From a virus (taxonomy: Duplodnaviria > Caudoviricetes), in IMG/VR virus record IMGVR_UViG_2834293421_000001, positions 1-64,000 of that record: a stretch of 64,000 nucleotides of DNA; one strand, written 5' to 3'. The number at the start of each line of letters is the position of its first letter. The first letter of the stretch is position 1. The notes beneath the pieces are model-generated. The model was not told the DNA's origin, made no database searches, and saw nothing but the letters and a program-made list of their open reading frames with translations. A program made the position numbers and the translations under genes. This document shows positions 51,138 to 58,077 of this stretch, piece after piece.

Positions 51138-51641
51138 ATGGATAAAAAAGAATTATTTAAAAAAGTAGAATTAAGATTGCATAATTATAAGTTTCTAGAA
51201 GCTCAAATAAATAATATAGAATTAGATATAAAGAAAGAGAAAATGAGATATAGAGGTTGTGGAGCTATAAATTATGGTGAAAGAACAAGTGAAACTTATA
51301 ATATTTCTAGAATTGTTGAAAAAGAGGTTATAGATAAAGAGAAGAAAATAGATAAATTGATGCAAAGTAAATTAGAAAAAGAAATAGAGAAAGCGAAAAT
51401 AGAAAACTCATTAAGTTGCTTAGATGTTAATGAAACTAATTTCTTTGAATTATTTTATAATAGCAAAAATAAAAATAATATGAAATATATAAGCCTTAAG
51501 CTACACATGGATCGCAGTCATTGCTACACAGTAAGAGAGCGATTAGTTTATAAAATTATGGGTATGTTGTATCCAAACTATGAAGAACTACCATTATTTA
51601 ATGAAAATAATAGCAAAGCCAACACTTTGGCTACATTTTAG
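51138..51641 (+). CDS. ArpU/RinA-like late transcriptional activator
   Basis: Highly similar to 11723-12226. Confidence 0.8.
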   Translation: MDKKELFKKVELRLHNYKFLEAQINNIELDIKKEKMRYRGCGAINYGERTSETYNISRIVEKEVIDKEKKIDKLMQSKLEKEIEKAKIENSLSCLDVNETNFFELFYNSKNKNNMKYISLKLHMDRSHCYTVRERLVYKIMGMLYPNYEELPLFNENNSKANTLATF

Positions 51642-51777
51642 CGACAAAGTAAAGATTTTTTATACATTCAGAGGTGGTAATATAGTAGTATAGGAAATTT
51701 AAGATAACTCAATTGCTTATTTCCTAATAACTCCCTCTTTATATAATGGCTAGGGTATAAATTTACCCTAGCAACGT

Positions 51778-51846
51778 GAGGATATAGTTTAATGGTAAAA
51801 TAGCTATTTAGAAGATAAGAGGTTCGATTCCTTTTAACCCTCACCA
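51778..51846 (+). ncRNA. tRNA-like RNA without a canonical anticodon arm (copy 2)
   Basis: GAGGATA-TA-GTTT-AATGGTA-AAAT, T-arm AGAGG-TTCGATT-CCTTT, ends CCCTC-A-CCA; anticodon arm reduced to CTA-TT-TAG; 69 nt. Confidence 0.7.
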
Positions 51847-52089
51847 ATATAACTTTACGGCTCTTAAGAGCACTCTGTAGCGGTATGGAGTATAAACTAG
51901 TTACATTTATTAGATTTATTAGCAACAACTTATTATGTTCAAAAAAGTCAGGACTTTCTCACCTGGCTTTTTTATTTTATATTTACTTTATTTAAATGAG
52001 TGTGGATATACTATAAATTATGTATAATTTATAGTATAAACTATTGAACAATAGTAATATATTATCAATATTTAAGTGGGGGAGATATT

Positions 52090-52290
52090 ATGAGGAAGTG
52101 TTTAAGATGCAATGAAACTATGGTTGAAGACTACATGCTAAAAACTGAAAACTTTACAGCTCAAGCATCAGTAGTATTAGGAAAAGGAAGTGGGGTTTTT
52201 TCATCAAATAAAGGAAAGATAAAGGCTGCAGTATGCCCAAATTGTGGAGAAATTTCAATATTTTTTGATAAGCTAGATAAAATTAAATAG
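52090..52290 (+). CDS. Small Zn-ribbon protein
   Basis: CLRC...VCPNCGEI. Confidence 0.8.
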   Translation: MRKCLRCNETMVEDYMLKTENFTAQASVVLGKGSGVFSSNKGKIKAAVCPNCGEISIFFDKLDKIK

Positions 52291-52386
52291 TGTATTCATA
52301 TTAAAAGTATATGAATTTAAAGTGGACAATTAGGGTCCATTTTTTTTTATAGGTTTGTATTCAAATCAGATTTGAGGTGGTGAGAT

Positions 52387-52935
52387 ATGAACTATGTAGA
52401 ACCTATTAGAAATTTAGATACATTAGAAAATATGTGCTCCTATTTAAAAAAGACAAATGAAAGAGACTACCTTCTATTTATGATGGGTATATATACAGGT
52501 CCTAGAGTATCAGATATATTAAAGTTTAGAATATATGATGTAAAAGATAAAAGGCAAATAGTCTTAAGAGAAAAGAAAACAGGGAAACAAAAATTCATAG
52601 AGATAAACCCAATACTGAAAAGAGCAATTAAAGATTATGTAGAGGACAAGGATCCTGATGATTTTTTAATTAAATCACGTAAAAACTACAATAGACCTAT
52701 ATCTAGAGAAAGAGCATATGTGATTTTAAAAGAGTTGGGAGAATTATTTGATGTTCCTTGTTTAGGAACCCATAGTATGAGAAAAACATGGGGATACCAT
52801 TACTATAAACAAACTAAAGATATAGCATTACTTCAGAAGATATTTAACCATTCATCTCCAGCTGTAACCTTACATTATATAGGTATAGACCAAGACAGAA
52901 TGAATAAAGCTTATACTAGCTTTAGATATTTTTAA
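52387..52935 (+). CDS. Small tyrosine recombinase (catalytic domain only)
   Basis: TGPRVSD (Pro in place of usual Leu), EKKTGK, HSMRKT, FNHSS, HYIG. Confidence 0.9.
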   Translation: MNYVEPIRNLDTLENMCSYLKKTNERDYLLFMMGIYTGPRVSDILKFRIYDVKDKRQIVLREKKTGKQKFIEINPILKRAIKDYVEDKDPDDFLIKSRKNYNRPISRERAYVILKELGELFDVPCLGTHSMRKTWGYHYYKQTKDIALLQKIFNHSSPAVTLHYIGIDQDRMNKAYTSFRYF

Positions 52936-53205
52936 TTTAATTTTATCTAGAATATAACATAAAAAGAGAATGTTATATTGGTTTATTTTATTTAGAAAAA
53001 ATAACGATTGAAATCATTGGAAATACTAAGTCTACAGTGGGTATATAAGTTGATAAAATGTATATAACACACTATTAGATATGTTATGTTCATAAGGTAG
53101 GGTTTATAAATAACTTGAAAGTATGATAAATTATAGAAAAATTTGTATATTACTAAAGCTTAAGGGAAATTATAATTACTAATTATAATTTTGGAGGTAT
53201 AGCTG

Positions 53206-53886
53206 ATGTTTAAACACGATAAAAAATTGTTTAGAGAAGTAAAAGTAGAAAGACCAAACCCTCAATATGCAGTTTTAATGCAAGAACAATTAGGAGGGGC
53301 AAATGGAGAGCTAAAAGCAGCAATGCAATATTTATCTCAAAGTTTTAGAATAAAAGATAAAGAGATAAAAGATTTATTTCTAGATATAGCAGCGGAAGAA
53401 CTTAGCCATATGGAAATGGTTGCTCAAACAATAAATTTATTAAATGGACATGATGTTGACTACCAAGCAGTTGATTCTGGAGAAATAGAAACTCATGTAC
53501 TAAGTGGATTATCACCATTTTTAATAAACTCTTCAGGAGCACCTTGGACTGCTGATTATGTTACTGTAACAGGAGACTTAGTTGCAGATCTATTATCAAA
53601 TATAGCATCAGAGCAAAGAGCAAAAGTTGTATATGAATACTTATATAGACAAATTGAAGATAAATACGTAAGAGAAACAATAGACTTCTTACTTAACAGA
53701 GAAGAAGCTCATAATGCTTTATTTAGAGAGGCATTAAATAAGATTAAAGATACAGGTTCAAATAGAGATTTTGGAGTTACTGAAGACTCTAAATTATACT
53801 TTGACTTATCTAGTCCGGGACCTAACAATCATAATACAAAGATGGATATTAACCCACCTTCTTTCAATGAACCAATAAAAAAATAG
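53206..53886 (+). CDS. Manganese catalase family protein
   Basis: EQLGGANGELKAAMQY, EELSHMEM, ASEQRAK, REEAH. Confidence 0.93.
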   Translation: MFKHDKKLFREVKVERPNPQYAVLMQEQLGGANGELKAAMQYLSQSFRIKDKEIKDLFLDIAAEELSHMEMVAQTINLLNGHDVDYQAVDSGEIETHVLSGLSPFLINSSGAPWTADYVTVTGDLVADLLSNIASEQRAKVVYEYLYRQIEDKYVRETIDFLLNREEAHNALFREALNKIKDTGSNRDFGVTEDSKLYFDLSSPGPNNHNTKMDINPPSFNEPIKK

Positions 53887-54004
53887 TAAATAAAAAAGAA
53901 CTCTTTAAAAGGGTTCTTTTTTATTTTGTAGGAGTAAATGATTTAGATGATGATATGAAACAAAGTATTGTTTAAATTGAAAATTGATAAATGAGGAATT
54001 AGAT

Positions 54005-54418
54005 ATGCTAAAGAAGTTTTGTAGATGTGGGAAAATTATTCCCCAAGAAATTTCTATGTGCTCTGAATGTGAAGCTAAATTTAATAATAGACAACAGAAA
54101 GTATATAAGGATTATAGAAAGCGAAGAGTAGACTTTAAAGAACAGAAGTTTTATTGCAATAAAGAATGGAAGTTTACTAGAGACTCTGTAAGACAAAGAG
54201 ATGATGGTATATGTAAGTTATGTGATGATAACTTAAGTGATGTAGTACATCATATAGAGACTTTAAAAGATTGCTGGAGCAAGAGATTAAATATGAATAA
54301 CCTTATATGTTTATGAGATAGGTGTCATAAGAAGGTACATAGAATGTACGATAAAGGAGAAGTATCTAAAATTAAGATGCAAAATGAACTAAAAGAATTG
54401 ATAAAAGAAAATTATTAA
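54005..54418 (+). pseudogene. HNH packaging endonuclease with in-frame TGA at 54314
   Basis: RDDGICKLC..VVHHI...NLICL*DRCHKKVH; frame stays open to 54418. Confidence 0.85.
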
Positions 54419-54500
54419 AGGATAGGGGGGGAGTCAAAAAGTTTTTGGCTTTTGACGTAAGTCCACGGTTGCAGTTTTTTTGCGCGGAAACTCCCTAAAT
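54419..54500 (+). other. Putative cos region
   Basis: GC-rich island (ggggggg...ccacggttgcag...gcgcggaaactccc) between HNH and terS. Confidence 0.6.
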
Positions 54501-54604
54501 AAAATTTTTTTGGACAGAGCAGAGATAGCTATGATTTAGAATTTATCTAAATTATAGCTATTTTAAATTTTGTAAAAATTAAAAAAAAATAAGGAGGTGA
54601 TAAT

Positions 54605-55060
54605 ATGGCTAGACCTAGGCAACCTGTTTCTCTACTTCAAGCTAAAGGCAAAAAACATTTAACAAAAGCTGAAATAGAAGAAAGAAAATCTCAAGAACTA
54701 AAAGTTAATTCAGATAATGTTAAAGCTCCTGTTTTTCTTAATGAAAGTTTAGTTGATGAATTTAATAAGTTTGTACAAGAAATGAATAGATTTGAAATTT
54801 TAGATAACACAGACTCGGATGCAGTAGGAAGATATACTTACTACAAAAATGAATTTGCTAGAATTGCTAAAAAGCTTTCTAAAACAGGTCCAGATAATAA
54901 AAAATATGATGATTATCTAAAAAAGCTAAGTAATATAAGTAAAGAAATAAATATTTTAGAAGTAAGATTTGGTATTACACCTGGGAATAGATGCAAATTA
55001 GTTATCCCTACTCAAAAAGAAGATAAACCTCCAAATAAATTTTCTAAATTTATGAAATAA
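54605..55060 (+). CDS. Terminase small subunit (P27 family)
   Basis: MARPRQP..GKKHLTKAEIEERK, FGITPGNR. Confidence 0.9.
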   Translation: MARPRQPVSLLQAKGKKHLTKAEIEERKSQELKVNSDNVKAPVFLNESLVDEFNKFVQEMNRFEILDNTDSDAVGRYTYYKNEFARIAKKLSKTGPDNKKYDDYLKKLSNISKEINILEVRFGITPGNRCKLVIPTQKEDKPPNKFSKFMK

Positions 55061-55068
55061 GGGGGTGG

Positions 55069-56799
55069 TTGTATGTGAATATAGACAGGGTTACTAGATA
55101 TGCTTTAGATGTAGTTGAAGGAAGAGAAATAGCTGGTAAAAATGTTATTTTAGCCTGTAAAAGACATTTAGAGGATTTAGAAAAGTCAAAATTAGCACCT
55201 TATATTTATGAATTTGATGCAGTTTTAGCTTTAGAATCAATAGAGTTCTTTGAAAGTCTAAGGTTTACAGATGGAGAAATAGCTGGGCAAGAGGTTGAGT
55301 TATTTGGATTCCAAGATTTTATAATAGGATCATTGTTTGGTTGGGTTTCAAAAGAAACTGGATATAGAAGATTTAGAAAAAGTTATGTACAACTTGCTAG
55401 AAAGAATGCGAAATCTCTTTTAAATAGTGGTTTAGCTATTAAATTATCAGCTTTTGATAACTATCCAAACGCTCAAGTTTATTGTACTGCTACAAAAATG
55501 AAACAAGCTAGGATAGTTTGGGAGCAAGCCAGTAAATTTATAAATGCAGAATCAGATTTAAAAGAATTATTTAAGATAAAAGACCATGATGCAATTATAG
55601 AATCTCTATATAGTGGCGGTAAAATAATGGCACTAGGAAGAGATACAGGAACTATAGATGGTTTTGATCCTCATGGCGGTATCATCGATGAATATCACAG
55701 TCATAGAACCAATCAAATGGTTAAACTCCTTGAAGATGGTTCTGTTAACCAAGCTGAATCTTTAATTAGTATTATAACTACGGCAGGGTTTAATTTAAAT
55801 GGACCGTGTTATAAAGAATGGGAATACTGTAAAAGTGTTTTAGAAGGAATAGTAAGCAATGATGAATACTTTATATACATAGCACAAATGGATGAAGATG
55901 ATGATATTTGGAATCCAGAAAACTGGTGTAAGGCCAATCCATTAGTTGCAAAACTACCCAAAGGATTAGAAAATTTAAAGAGATTTGCAAAAGAAGCAAT
56001 GCAAAAAGGTGGAGAAGATCTAAGAAATTTCCTAACTAAATCTTTAAATATATGGTATGAGTTTTCAGACGACCAATACATAGGACCAGAAAAATGGGCA
56101 AAGTGTAAATCTAAAAAGACATTAGAAGATTTTAGAGGACAAAAATGTTATGTAGGTTTAGATTTAAGTTCTGGAGGAGACTTAACTTCATTAGCTTTAA
56201 TATTTGTATATTATGTTGAAGGAGTTAAAAAGTATTTTATACATTCACATTCATTTATTCCTAAAAACAGAGTTGAGGAACATATAAAAAGTGATAATGT
56301 ACCTTATGATGTTTGGATAAAAGCTAAACTTCTGACAGTTACAGAAACTCTTGGAGGAATAAAAACAGACTATAAATATATAATTGCATATTTAAAGTCT
56401 TTAATTGAAGAATATGACTTGAAAATTGAACAGTTAGGCTACGATCCACATAATGCAGATGCATTTTTAAGTGATTTAGAAGAATTAGGGTGCGATTGTA
56501 TAGAAATATATCAATCACCTAAATGGCTAAATGATGCTACGGAAGATTTTAAATTAGAAGTAGAGGCTGGAAATGTTGAATACAATGAGGAAAATGAACT
56601 TTTAGCATGGTCAGTTGTAAATGCAAAAACAGTTTCTAATTCAAGTGGAGAAATTAAGATAGATAAAGATAGAAGAAATAAAAGAATAGATCCAGTAGAC
56701 TCTGTTATAGATGCATATAAACTAGCATTTAAAGAAGAAAGATTGTCTGATATTAATGAAACAGTTGATAAATACTTTGACATAATGGGATGGAATTAG
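55069..56799 (+). CDS. Terminase large subunit (cos-type)
   Basis: ARKNAKS, IIDEYH, ITTAG, GLDLS, RIDP. Confidence 0.95.
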   Translation: MYVNIDRVTRYALDVVEGREIAGKNVILACKRHLEDLEKSKLAPYIYEFDAVLALESIEFFESLRFTDGEIAGQEVELFGFQDFIIGSLFGWVSKETGYRRFRKSYVQLARKNAKSLLNSGLAIKLSAFDNYPNAQVYCTATKMKQARIVWEQASKFINAESDLKELFKIKDHDAIIESLYSGGKIMALGRDTGTIDGFDPHGGIIDEYHSHRTNQMVKLLEDGSVNQAESLISIITTAGFNLNGPCYKEWEYCKSVLEGIVSNDEYFIYIAQMDEDDDIWNPENWCKANPLVAKLPKGLENLKRFAKEAMQKGGEDLRNFLTKSLNIWYEFSDDQYIGPEKWAKCKSKKTLEDFRGQKCYVGLDLSSGGDLTSLALIFVYYVEGVKKYFIHSHSFIPKNRVEEHIKSDNVPYDVWIKAKLLTVTETLGGIKTDYKYIIAYLKSLIEEYDLKIEQLGYDPHNADAFLSDLEELGCDCIEIYQSPKWLNDATEDFKLEVEAGNVEYNEENELLAWSVVNAKTVSNSSGEIKIDKDRRNKRIDPVDSVIDAYKLAFKEERLSDINETVDKYFDIMGWN

Positions 56800-56808
56800 A
56801 AGGGAGGT

Positions 56809-58077
56809 GTGAAAGTGAACCTTATAAAAAATTTAAAGAATCTTATATTACCTAAACCACAAACTGTTGATATGAGAAGTGAAAAGTTATTAGAGTGGCT
56901 AGGTATAACAACTAGAAATAAAAATATCTTAAGTGAAGTTACTTATTTTACTTGCTTAAAAATGTTATCTGAGACATTAGGTAAAATGCCTATTAAAATG
57001 TATCAAGAAACGGAAAAAGGTGTAATAAGAGCAGCACCAAATAAAGCATATAATTTATTAAAGGTTAGACCTAACCCTTATATGACACCCTCTATATTTT
57101 GGGCAACTGTAGAAAATAATAGAAATCACTTTGGAAATGCTTATGTTTATATAAGAAAAGAATTTAAGCGTGAAAAATATGGAGCTACATATGAAATAAA
57201 AGATTTATGGATTATGCCAAGTAATGATGTACAAGTTATTATGGACAATAAAGGAATCTTTGGAATTAAGGATGCACTTTGGTATATCTATACTGATAGA
57301 TACACAGGCGAACAATTTGTATTTAAAAATGAAGAAGTACTACACTTTAAAACCTCATTTACATTCGATGGTATATCAGGAGAGCCAGTTAGTAAAATTT
57401 TAAAATATACCCTTGAGGGTGGAGTTGAAAGTCAAAATTTCATTAATAACCTTTATAAAACAGGACTTACTGCAAAAGCTACATTGGAATATACAGGAGA
57501 TTTAGATAAGTCAAAAGAAGATAAATTAATAGAAGGTATTTCAAGGTTTGCTAATGGATCTCAAAATGCAGGTAAAATAATTCCTATTCCTCTTGGGATG
57601 AAAATAACACCTTTAAATATAAAGCTAACAGATAGTCAATTTTATGAATTAAAGAAATTTTCATCACTTCAAATAGCAGGAGCATTTGGAATAAAGCCAA
57701 ACCAAATAAATAACTATGAAAAATCTAGTTATTCAAGTGGAGAAATGCAACAACTTAGCTTTTATGTAGATACAGAGCAATTTATATTAAAACAATATGA
57801 AGAGGAAATCTGCTATAAATTATTAAGTGATGAAGAGAAAAATGAAAATAAGTATTATAAATTCAATGAAAAAGCTATTTTACGAACAGATGCAAAAACA
57901 CAGGCTGAGTGTTTAACATCCTTTGTAAATAATGCTATATATACTCCAAATGATGCTAGAGCAATTTTAGATATGCCAGCAAAAGAAGGTGGAGATGTAT
58001 TAGTTTGTAATGGTAACTATATACCTATAACAAAAGTAGGAAAGCAATATGGGGAAGGAGGCGAAAACAGTGAGTAA
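56809..58077 (+). CDS. HK97-family portal protein
   Basis: RPNPYMT, GNAYV, EVLHFK, IAGAFGI, TPNDAR. Confidence 0.95.
   Translation: MKVNLIKNLKNLILPKPQTVDMRSEKLLEWLGITTRNKNILSEVTYFTCLKMLSETLGKMPIKMYQETEKGVIRAAPNKAYNLLKVRPNPYMTPSIFWATVENNRNHFGNAYVYIRKEFKREKYGATYEIKDLWIMPSNDVQVIMDNKGIFGIKDALWYIYTDRYTGEQFVFKNEEVLHFKTSFTFDGISGEPVSKILKYTLEGGVESQNFINNLYKTGLTAKATLEYTGDLDKSKEDKLIEGISRFANGSQNAGKIIPIPLGMKITPLNIKLTDSQFYELKKFSSLQIAGAFGIKPNQINNYEKSSYSSGEMQQLSFYVDTEQFILKQYEEEICYKLLSDEEKNENKYYKFNEKAILRTDAKTQAECLTSFVNNAIYTPNDARAILDMPAKEGGDVLVCNGNYIPITKVGKQYGEGGENSE

What the first reader, a model, noticed from the sequence alone, without database searches (positions are those of the whole stretch)
51778..51846. 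Second, diverged anticodon-less tRNA-like RNA (prophage 2)
Seen: same length (69 nt) and position. D-loop AATGGTA; T-stem changed (AGAGG vs GAAGG) but still pairs with CCTTT; T-loop and ACCA identical; the anticodon region differs and is again collapsed. Substitutions mostly spare the T-loop and 3' end, suggesting selection on tRNA shape rather than decoding. The acceptor stem here is imperfect.
Basis: partly seen in the sequence, partly recalled or inferred. Interest (0 to 1): 0.7.

Follow-up and report, generated by a model that had tools for sequence, protein, structure and literature searches.

The report
Anticodon-less tRNA relic in phage leader
This 69-base stretch is a phage tRNA-Glu gene that has lost its anticodon loop but kept its upper half; it sits in the leader RNA ahead of a prophage's late genes and most likely now serves as a cutting signal for tRNA-processing enzymes.

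Summary
51778-51846 scores as tRNA in Rfam (32.7 bits, gathering 29), while ARAGORN finds no tRNA. It is the twin of 12362-12430.

Related prophages carry, at the same place, full-length tRNA-Glu(UUC) genes. Other variants there are a 3-base anticodon loop, a 60-85-base insert, or only an acceptor/T-arm minihelix. Copy 2 is the most eroded recognisable form:
- 16 bases stand where 23 should be;
- 5 of 7 acceptor pairs remain;
- it is 4 bases shorter than 16 of 20 related haplotypes.

It cannot decode. It lies in a structured, terminator-ended leader behind a RinA-like regulator.

The T stem stays paired in 69 of 70 cells across 14 collapsed variants. One of them shows a compensated A-U to U-A swap. 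A minihelix with the same geometry covaries in Clostridioides difficile phage leaders. However, between the two window copies the element is no better conserved than unstructured leader parts (p = 0.20), and three leader types lack it.

Best reading (0.5): a t-element-like RNase P processing signal. Main rival (0.3): a decaying relic. No RNA ends could be mapped.

The scan had already reached the same reading for the twin copy, and noted similar RNAs in other prophages.

The parts
51138..51641 (+). 167-aa late-regulator-like gene (context). It is 85% identical to the twin gene at 11723-12226.
   Evidence: phrog_36 'transcriptional regulator', E 1.1e-24. Weak match to the RinA family TIGR01636, E 2.9e-4, below its cut-off. 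No Pfam family. Identity to the twin.
51623..51645 (+). Two imperfect direct repeats of about 11 bases that straddle the regulator's stop codon. They are a candidate activator-binding site.
   Evidence: Read. Perfect repeats stand at the same place in relatives. In staphylococcal and enterococcal phages such repeats just after the regulator gene are its binding site (PMC3753634, passages read). The assignment is by analogy only.
51659..51686 (+). Promoter-like site TTTATA-16-TATAGT, the likely start of the leader RNA.
   Evidence: 9 of 12 matches. The twin site at 12244-12271 matches 10 of 12. The number of such sites is no higher than in shuffles, so this rests on conservation and position.
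51749..51772 (+). Hairpin H0: a 9-pair stem with a 6-base loop that always precedes the tRNA-like element.
   Evidence: Predicted. The stem sequence differs between relatives while pairing is kept, in 19 of the 21 rows. L093 is cut off in that table. In L064 the whole-stretch fold pairs only 6 pairs of the H0 stem, beside another hairpin.
51773..51777 (+). 5-base linker AACGT, with T at position -1 before the first acceptor base.
   Evidence: T at -1 appears in all 21 rows. One row, L014, was printed 3 bases out of register because of my coordinates.
51778..51846 (+). The finding: a tRNA-Glu-derived, anticodon-less tRNA-like element. It has an acceptor stem with 5 of 7 pairs, a D arm, a 16-base remnant, a T arm and ACCA.
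   Evidence: Rfam tRNA 32.7 bits. No ARAGORN call. Own model R1 scores 79 bits. Anatomy table.
51860..51897 (+). Hairpins H1 (51860-51871) and H2 (51872-51891) plus the ATAAAC tail. This is the most conserved core of the leader and is identical in both prophages.
   Evidence: 0 differences in 51847-51899. The core is present in leaders that lack the tRNA module (L057, L076, L098).
51941..51979 (+). Intrinsic-terminator-like hairpin followed by a T run, ending the leader.
   Evidence: 12-pair stem in the fold. It was missed by the scan, whose rule allows loops of at most 8 bases; this loop has 9. It is identical in copy 1.
12362..12430 (+). Twin element of prophage 1. Its anticodon stem is kept and closed by a 3-base loop.
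   Evidence: Rfam tRNA 42 bits. Anatomy table.

Best explanation
The element descends from a phage tRNA-Glu(UUC) gene. The gene lies in the promoter-proximal leader of the late (packaging) operon, between a RinA-like regulator gene and a terminator.

A deletion of 6-7 bases removed the anticodon, so the element no longer decodes (shown). What remains is the part of a tRNA that processing enzymes read (shown):
- T at -1;
- four intact terminal acceptor pairs;
- ACCA;
- a canonical T arm of the form GGTTCRANYCC;
- the D-loop GG.

Inferred mechanism: the leader is transcribed from the promoter-like site at 51659-51686. Host RNase P cuts before 51778. The upstream piece then ends in hairpin H0, and 3' trimming after ACCA frees the downstream hairpins and late RNA. 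The element would thus act as a punctuation mark, like the t-elements of plant mitochondria.

Copy 2 is a weakened member of this class.
For: Descent from tRNA-Glu.
- Relatives hold ARAGORN-called tRNA-Glu(ttc) genes at the same place. These score 55-63 Rfam bits, against 42-48 for the copy 1 type and 26-36 for the copy 2 type.
- L095 is full length and has the same T stem and variable loop as copy 1.

Cloverleaf.
- On 28 distinct sequences 91.5% of cells pair, against 41-56% when partners are slid.
- The T stem pairs in 97.8% of cells, with 3 pairs changed on both sides. The D stem pairs in 100% (one search is similar).

After loss of the anticodon (14 distinct collapsed sequences).
- 69 of 70 T-stem cells pair.
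- L093 has a compensated A-U to U-A swap.
- Acceptor pairs 1-4 are intact in 13 of 14 sequences.

Recurrent loss of the lower half only.
- Of 45 leader copies, 26 are collapsed, 12 full length, 4 a minihelix, 2 carry an insert and 1 has no module.

Minihelix class.
- The minihelix class and a look-alike in C. difficile phage leaders pair in 90.6% of cells, against 28-44% when slid. The T stem pairs in 100%, with 3 pairs changed on both sides.

Context.
- Regulator. Promoter-like site.
- The leader folds with z -4.05.
- Contigs of RNA libraries from 4 of 4 runs span the element.

Precedent.
- t-elements are cut by RNase P or RNase Z (PMC1920247, passages read).
Against: - No RNA 5' or 3' end could be seen. 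All runs were assembled contigs, and the tool warns that DNA may be present in such libraries.
- The acceptor stem is eroding. By my reading, 5 of 7 acceptor substitutions in the collapsed lineage break a pair. Copy 2 has 5 of 7 pairs and an extra T at the T-stem junction.
- Between copies 1 and 2 the element is no better conserved than unstructured leader parts (p = 0.20).
- Among 20 haplotypes of the copy 2 type the element shows 15.9 events per 100 bases, against 7.5 in H1-H2 and 27-34 in the spacers. This is only mildly below the spacers (one-sided p = 0.046).
- Its middle is indel-prone: it is 4 bases shorter here than in 16 of 20 haplotypes.
- Three leader types lack the module (L057, L076, L098).
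- One relative has the base of its acceptor stem destroyed (L101).
- Bases -2 and -1 can pair with C74 and A73 (fold), which might disturb canonical cleavage.
- The 69-base fold has z -1.37.
Confidence: 0.5

Rival explanations
1. The element is a decaying pseudogene. The tRNA-Glu gene lost its function when the anticodon loop was deleted. The rest persists only because it is young, sits between constrained neighbours, and is copied around by recombination. Any RNase P cutting is incidental.
For: - Its divergence equals that of unstructured leader parts (p = 0.20).
- The acceptor is eroding and the middle has indels.
- The copy 2 type has the lowest tRNA scores, 26-36 bits, and 2 of the 8 copy 2-type relatives scored fall below the gathering score.
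- The module is absent from 3 leader types.
- L101 has a broken acceptor.
- L091 shows that modules are shuffled by recombination.
Against: - The T stem is kept in 69 of 70 cells, with a compensated transversion pair in L093.
- There are at least five different ways of losing or altering the lower half, while the acceptor/T-arm stack is kept in 44 of 45 leader copies.
- A minihelix without D and anticodon arms is conserved with covariation across phages whose regulators are only 57-58% identical.
- Collapsed forms are the commonest state, 26 of 45. These copies are from related strains and are not independent.
Confidence: 0.3
2. The element is a trans-acting tRNA mimic. Once cut out, the CCA-ended, non-decoding tRNA-shaped RNA binds a factor that reads the tRNA elbow or 3' end. 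Examples would be a tRNA-targeting defence nuclease, a toxin, or a tRNA-modifying or CCA-adding enzyme. The RNA would act as a decoy or sponge during late infection.
For: - ACCA is encoded in all 14 collapsed variants. The D-loop GG and the T loop are invariant in all 28 sequences of A4.
- Its position before the terminator would give high expression whenever the late promoter fires.
- Phage tRNAs that counter tRNA nucleases are known (PMC11464382, abstract seen in the listing).
Against: - The minihelix and insertion classes lack CCA, and the minihelix class lacks a D loop, so no elbow or 3' end is common to all classes.
- No partner was identified.
- The acceptor of copy 2 is weakened.
Confidence: 0.1
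3. The element is a 5' stabiliser that stays attached. RNase P cuts at 51778, but the encoded CCA blocks RNase Z. The tRNA-like fold then remains at the 5' end of the leader or late RNA and shields it from 5' exonuclease.
For: CCA is encoded. That CCA inhibits RNase Z in Bacillota is recalled knowledge and was not tested here. An A/T-rich single-stranded stretch follows ACCA.
Against: Classes without CCA occupy the same site. There are no end data.
Confidence: 0.07
4. It is not an RNA feature. It would instead be a chance match, a DNA site (operator, cos or att) or part of the antisense ORF at 51668-51928.
For: An 86-codon antisense ORF overlaps the element. The region lies where cos sites are expected, upstream of the HNH and terminase genes.
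Against: - The antisense frame is broken in copy 1 and in L004.
- Pairing-preserving changes argue for RNA.
- Homology to full tRNAs excludes chance.
- The same element precedes two different packaging modules.
Confidence: 0.03

Closest known systems
Phage-encoded tRNA genes (Rfam RF00005), including tRNA genes placed in late-operon leaders of lambdoid phages (the latter recalled and named in earlier scan notes, not checked here)
   Same: The element descends from such a gene. It keeps the acceptor, D and T arms and an encoded CCA. Full-length tRNA-Glu(UUC) relatives stand at the same leader position.
   Different: It has no anticodon loop: 16 bases stand where 23 are needed. ARAGORN rejects it, so it cannot decode.
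Plant-mitochondrial t-elements (Forner et al. 2007, PMC1920247; passages read)
   Same: Both are non-canonical tRNA-like folds with a conserved GGTTCRANYCC T arm, embedded in longer transcripts. In the plant case RNase P or RNase Z cutting makes mRNA ends. That is the working model here.
   Different: The organelle elements are eukaryotic and not homologous. For them transcript ends were mapped; here none are.
mascRNA of MALAT1 and the tRNA-like parts of murine gammaherpesvirus 68 TMER transcripts (recalled, not checked)
   Same: A non-decoding tRNA-like fold is used as a handle for tRNA-processing enzymes to release neighbouring RNA hairpins.
   Different: These are eukaryotic nuclear or viral systems, and they are not homologous.
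Phage T4 stable RNAs rnaC/rnaD and the RNase P-matured C4 RNA of phages P1/P7 (recalled; also named in earlier scan notes)
   Same: They are phage small RNAs with tRNA-like ends that RNase P matures.
   Different: They have different sequences, hosts and genome positions. Their relation to this element was not tested.
tmRNA tRNA-like domain and bacterial YrlA (Y RNA-like) tRNA mimics
   Same: Both have an acceptor/T-arm mimic without an anticodon arm.
   Different: There is no tmRNA call and no Rfam match other than tRNA. There is no message part. The 5' and 3' ends meet in the acceptor stem, as in a tRNA.

Membership tests
tRNA (RF00005), functional decoder | Covariance-model score at or above the gathering score | tested here: met
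   32.7 bits against 29. This is the lowest band among relatives.
tRNA (RF00005), functional decoder | Anticodon arm: a 5-pair stem with a 7-base loop | tested here: not met
   16 bases lie between the D and T stems, against 23 in L095. There is no ARAGORN call. The Rfam alignment deletes most of the arm.
tRNA (RF00005), functional decoder | Seven-pair acceptor stem abutting the T stem | tested here: inconclusive
   5 of 7 pairs, plus one extra T at the junction. Pairs 1-4 are intact.
tRNA (RF00005), functional decoder | Elbow nucleotides: D-loop GG and T-loop TTCRA | tested here: met
   AATGGTA and TTCGATT. These are invariant in the 28 sequences.
t-element-like processing signal (functional class) | Non-canonical cloverleaf with a conserved GGTTCRANYCC arm | tested here: met
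   GGTTCGATTCC at 51821-51831. The motif is as given in PMC1920247.
t-element-like processing signal (functional class) | Lies inside a longer transcript | tested here: inconclusive
   Contigs from RNA libraries of 4 of 4 runs span it together with its flanks. Contigs do not prove transcription.
t-element-like processing signal (functional class) | RNA ends coincide with the element's ends, and RNase P or RNase Z cuts it | not testable with these tools
   Only assembled contigs were served. Table 6 lists no begin or end places.
tmRNA | tRNA-like domain plus a tag reading frame and pseudoknots | tested here: not met
   ARAGORN found no tmRNA, and Rfam gave no tmRNA match.
Late-regulator (RinA/ArpU/LtrC superfamily) controlled late leader | The regulator belongs to the superfamily | tested here: inconclusive
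   phrog_36, E 1.1e-24. TIGR01636 RinA scores 21 bits, below its cut-off of 31.9. No Pfam family.
Late-regulator (RinA/ArpU/LtrC superfamily) controlled late leader | Direct repeats just after the regulator gene, followed by the packaging-gene promoter | tested here: met
   Repeats at about 51623-51645 and the promoter-like site at 51659-51686. The pattern is as described in PMC3753634. Binding itself was not tested.

The most novel reading that the evidence does not exclude
The cut-out, CCA-ended, non-decoding tRNA-shaped RNA is a trans-acting mimic made in bulk from the late promoter. It would occupy a host factor that reads the tRNA elbow or 3' end, such as a tRNA-targeting defence nuclease or toxin. 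The hairpin-linker-minihelix cassettes seen here and in C. difficile phage leaders would then be one undescribed family of phage tRNA decoys.
Probability: 0.08. Interest if true: 0.8.

Novelty: new variant of a known kind. Interest (0 to 1): 0.45.

Why it matters
If the reading is right, temperate phages of Peptostreptococcaceae re-use the upper half of a tRNA as a built-in handle for host tRNA-processing enzymes at the head of their late operon. These phages include well-studied Clostridioides difficile phages, whose leaders hold look-alike minihelices. This would be a bacterial-virus counterpart of the tRNA punctuation and t-elements known from organelles.

It would also explain why annotation pipelines miss these genes, and why phage "tRNA" calls near the gathering score should not be read as decoders.

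It gives a simple, testable handle on late-gene RNA processing in phages that can be induced in the laboratory.

The element itself is a duplicate of the one already examined in prophage 1 and is its more eroded form, so this finding adds little new information of its own.

Tried and rejected
Searches that found little or nothing.
- Nucleotide search of the leader against 50,697 phage records: no match.
- The 5'-half motif in viral contigs gave 30 loci. Two of the three (L090, L092) are chance hits, and L091 is a recombinant.
- Of the 6 genome hits, one (L077) is a chance hit in an archaeal coding region.
- The family search found 8 of 112 genomes. Two of these (L086, L087) are short matches unrelated to the leader.
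- Rfam at E <= 1 on 51600-52000 gave only tRNA.
- Rfam on the C. difficile phage leaders gave nothing. My own model scores them only 13.7-13.9 bits, E about 0.2, so their minihelices rest on the pair counts, not on a search score.
- L027 and L029 (6-base anticodon loop) were not listed by Rfam at E <= 1, though ARAGORN lists them as tRNA of unknown type. I have no explanation.

Folding. Single-sequence folding does not single out the element (z -1.37 and -0.34; even the full-length L095 does not show its D arm), so I did not use energies as evidence.

RNA runs. The four runs laid were all contigs. Contig ends at 51927 carry library adaptor letters in two runs, and I read these as library artefacts, not RNA ends. 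No processing site can be claimed. Parts without cover are not evidence.

Terminator/acceptor similarity. I considered an antiterminator pairing and rejected it. The shared stretch touches only one base of the terminator stem. In addition, leaders with other acceptor sequences carry unrelated terminators.

Other rejections.
- The antisense ORF is rejected.
- The cabRNA of staphylococcal phages maps inside terS-terL, not in the leader, so it is not related.

Literature. Searches for a description of this element found none. I saw listings and abstract starts only, except for passages of PMC3753634, PMC1920247, PMC11477304 and 10.1101/2023.03.07.531596. Supplementary files were not opened.

Full report
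WHAT IS THERE

The stretch 51778-51846 reads as follows:
- acceptor strand GAGGATA;
- TA;
- D arm GTTT-AATGGTA-AAAT;
- a 16-base remnant;
- T arm AGAGG-TTCGATT-CCTTT;
- one extra T;
- acceptor strand AACCCTC;
- ACCA.

Rfam's tRNA model matches it at 32.7 bits (gathering score 29; E 0.0057 for the 64-kb window). It matches the twin at 12362-12430 at 42 bits. ARAGORN finds no tRNA or tmRNA in the window. The Rfam alignment shows why: nearly the whole anticodon arm is deleted.

Two details need correcting. Two of the eight substitutions between the copies fall in the 3' acceptor strand. One of the two acceptor mismatches (A7/A66) is ancestral.

WHERE IT LIES

The record is a provirus of 74,289 bases. 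It has two different packaging modules:
- terS/terL at 13390-15433;
- HNH, terS, terL and portal at 53984-58077.

Each module is preceded by a 167-aa gene. The two genes are 85% identical. They match phrog_36 'transcriptional regulator', match the RinA family weakly, and match no Pfam family.

After each gene comes a leader of about 330 bases that is 90% identical between the prophages. In prophage 2 its parts are:
- direct repeats over the stop codon;
- a promoter-like site at 51659-51686;
- a 5' hairpin;
- hairpin H0 at 51749-51772;
- the linker AACGT;
- the tRNA-like element;
- hairpins H1 and H2 at 51860-51891;
- a spacer;
- a terminator-like hairpin with a T run at 51941-51979.

The whole leader folds much better than shuffles (z -4.05).

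Repeats directly after the regulator gene, followed by the packaging-gene promoter, are the pattern described for RinA/ArpU/LtrC activators (PMC3753634, passages read). In prophage 1 the first gene starts about 25 bases after the terminator's T run. Late transcription must therefore start upstream of the terminator. This last point is inference.

WHAT IT DESCENDS FROM

Relatives came from several searches:
- a search with the regulator protein (27 loci);
- the H2 motif in viral contigs (43 loci);
- one-genome-per-species contigs (6 hits, 1 a chance hit; hosts named Paraclostridium, Romboutsia and an Anaerovoracaceae MAG);
- a family search (8 of 112 genomes);
- metagenomes (10 loci).

The same slot, after H0 and the linker, holds a series of forms:
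- Full-length tRNAs that ARAGORN calls tRNA-Glu(ttc). They score 55-63 Rfam bits.
- The same tRNA body with anticodon TGA (L062) or TGG (L083), or with a 6-base loop (L027, L029).
- The copy 1 type, with a 5-pair anticodon stem closed by 3 bases.
- The copy 2 type.
- A type with a 60-85-base insert (L078, L100).
- A type with only acceptor stem and T arm (for example L042).

L095 is decisive. It is a full-length tRNA-Glu(UUC) with the T stem and variable loop of copy 1, and its middle is 23 bases long. Copy 1 has 17 bases there, copy 2 has 16, and the commoner copy 2 variant has 20. A deletion of 6-7 bases removed the anticodon.

Counting the 45 leader copies of the window plus one search gives: 26 collapsed (5 of copy 1 type, 4 like copy 2, 16 with four more bases, 1 cut locus), 12 full length, 4 minihelix, 2 insert and 1 without the module. 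These are related strains, not independent samples.

IS THE SHAPE UNDER SELECTION?

Family level.
- On 22 MAFFT-aligned sequences, 89.9% of cells pair, against 40-57% when partners are slid.
- On 28 model-aligned sequences, 91.5% pair against 41-56%. This alignment leans towards the structure.
- The T stem pairs in 97.8% of cells, with 3 of 5 pairs changed on both sides. The D stem pairs in 100%. The acceptor pairs in 85.7%.

After the anticodon loss (14 distinct collapsed sequences).
- 69 of 70 T-stem cells pair.
- L093 has the same collapsed 12-mer as copy 1 but a compensated A-U to U-A swap in the T stem.
- Acceptor pairs 1-4 are intact in 13 of 14 sequences.
- The inner acceptor pairs are eroding, with 71 of 98 acceptor cells paired. 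By my reading, 5 of 7 acceptor substitutions break a pair.

Between copies 1 and 2.

| Region | Differences | Comparison with the tRNA-like element |
|---|---|---|
| tRNA-like element | 8 of 69 | - |
| Synonymous sites of the regulator | 35 of 85.5 | p = 6e-5 |
| Unstructured leader parts | 19 of 97 | p = 0.20 |
| H1-H2 plus terminator | 0 of 88 | p = 0.001 |

Among 20 haplotypes of the copy 2 type.
- The element shows 15.9 events per 100 bases, H1-H2 shows 7.5, and the spacers show 27-34 (one-sided p = 0.046 against the spacers).
- The window's copy lacks four bases that 16 of the 20 haplotypes have. RNA-library contigs of 3 of 4 runs carry 4 extra bases at this place.

Dispensability and shuffling.
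- Three leader types lack the module (L057, L076, L098).
- L101 has a ruined acceptor.
- L091 is a recombinant.

Taken together: the T arm and the end of the acceptor stem look constrained, the middle does not, and the two-copy comparison alone cannot prove constraint.

A WIDER PATTERN

The regulator has 57-58% identical homologues in 24 phage records, among them phiCD119, phiC2, CDMH1, phiMMP03, phiCD505, phiCD508 and CD1801. In the seven records I fetched, the unannotated gap after that gene holds repeats, a promoter-like site and an H0-like hairpin. It also holds two tRNA-like minihelices without D and anticodon arms.

The second minihelix follows an 8-pair hairpin and a 5-base linker ending in T. 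This is the same layout as H0-AACGT here. It also shares its acceptor sequence with the minihelix class of the window's relatives.

On 4 + 4 distinct sequences, 90.6% of cells pair against 28-44% when slid. The T stem pairs in 100% of cells, with 3 of 5 pairs changed on both sides. Pair 7:66 is unpaired in all 8.

Search scores for these elements are weak (no Rfam match; 13.7-13.9 bits with my model).

An upper half without the lower half has thus persisted across deeply diverged phages. This is the strongest argument against a mere relic.

MECHANISM

Every form shares the same features: a stable hairpin, a short linker ending in T, and then a stack of acceptor and T stems with a 7-base loop. 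This is the minimal substrate of bacterial RNase P (established knowledge, recalled). It is also the logic of plant-mitochondrial t-elements, which are non-canonical tRNA-like folds with a GGTTCRANYCC arm whose ends coincide with mRNA ends (PMC1920247).

I therefore propose RNase P cleavage before 51778. The upstream RNA would end in H0, and trimming after ACCA would free H1-H2 and the late RNA.

What is shown: descent from tRNA-Glu, loss of decoding, the conserved anatomy and the context.

What is inferred: transcription, cleavage and benefit. RNA-library contigs of 4 of 4 runs span the element, but they cannot show ends or even prove transcription.

RIVALS

The rivals are a decaying relic (0.3), a trans-acting mimic or decoy (0.1), a retained 5' stabiliser (0.07), and a DNA site, chance match or antisense ORF (0.03; the ORF is broken in relatives).

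NOVELTY

I found no description of this element in five literature searches. The kind, however, is known: tRNA-derived non-decoding RNAs and t-elements.

Earlier notes of this scan reached the same reading for the twin copy and list similar anticodon-less tRNA-like RNAs in late leaders of other prophages. Those are unchecked AI notes and not independent support.

This particular copy is the more eroded duplicate, so its own interest is moderate.

Noticed in passing
window 51847-51899 (twin 12431-12483): The H1-H2 block is identical in both prophages. It is the only leader part present in every relative, including three leader types without the tRNA module. H2 folds as an 8-pair hairpin with a G(C/A)GG loop followed by ATAAAC. 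Changes in relatives turn G-U pairs into A-U pairs (L094, L095, L083, L091). Its role is unknown; it may be a read-through or antitermination signal before the terminator.
   Followed up: partly
L103:3130-3349 (phiCD119), with the same place in L104-L109 (CD1801, phiC2, CDMH1, phiCD505, phiMMP03, phiCD508): The unannotated gap of about 700 bases after the regulator homologue of C. difficile phages holds two tRNA-like minihelices without D and anticodon arms, an 8-pair hairpin followed by ACCA, and a terminator. There is no Rfam match. Pairing is kept through changes on both sides.
   Followed up: partly
L062:2937-3011 and L083:1558-1632 (- strand): These are full-length relatives with the tRNA-Glu body. 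Their anticodon-loop letters read TGA and TGG instead of TTC, on an otherwise almost unchanged cloverleaf. This is either an anticodon switch or drift in a non-decoding RNA.
   Followed up: no
L078:2376-2510 and L100:1364-1473 (- strand): These tRNA-like genes have a 60-85-base insert in place of the anticodon arm and no encoded CCA. The acceptor and T arms are perfect. The two inserts share only their first 20 bases or so.
   Followed up: partly
window 51981-52375: RNA-library contigs of two runs join 51980 to 52363 or 52376. Their strains therefore lack the stretch of about 380-395 bases with the zinc-ribbon gene 52090-52290. That stretch is an insertion between the terminator and the next gene.
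   Followed up: no
window 52387-53886: Directly after the leader's terminator come a 182-aa protein consisting only of a tyrosine-recombinase catalytic domain (Pfam Phage_integrase) and a 226-aa manganese catalase. Both lie ahead of the HNH and terminase genes, which is an odd cargo at the head of a late operon.
   Followed up: no
window 51668-51928 (- strand): An 86-codon antisense ORF covers the whole leader. It is broken in copy 1 and in the commoner 4-base-longer variant, so it is not a gene.
   Followed up: yes
run X1, loose end before window 51848 (table 7): A contig from a metatranscriptome carries yet another variant of the T arm and 3' acceptor strand in front of the H1-H2 block, ending in TCA instead of CCA.
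   Followed up: no
L091:2282-2354 (- strand) and flanks: This is a recombinant leader. It has the promoter region and H0 of the copy 1 type joined to a tRNA-like element of the copy 2 type, so the cassette is exchanged between leaders.
   Followed up: no
L027 and L029 (tRNA-like with 6-base anticodon loop): Rfam listed no match at E <= 1, although close relatives score 55-60 bits and my own model scores these two at 76-78 bits. This may be a filter effect. It is unexplained.
   Followed up: no
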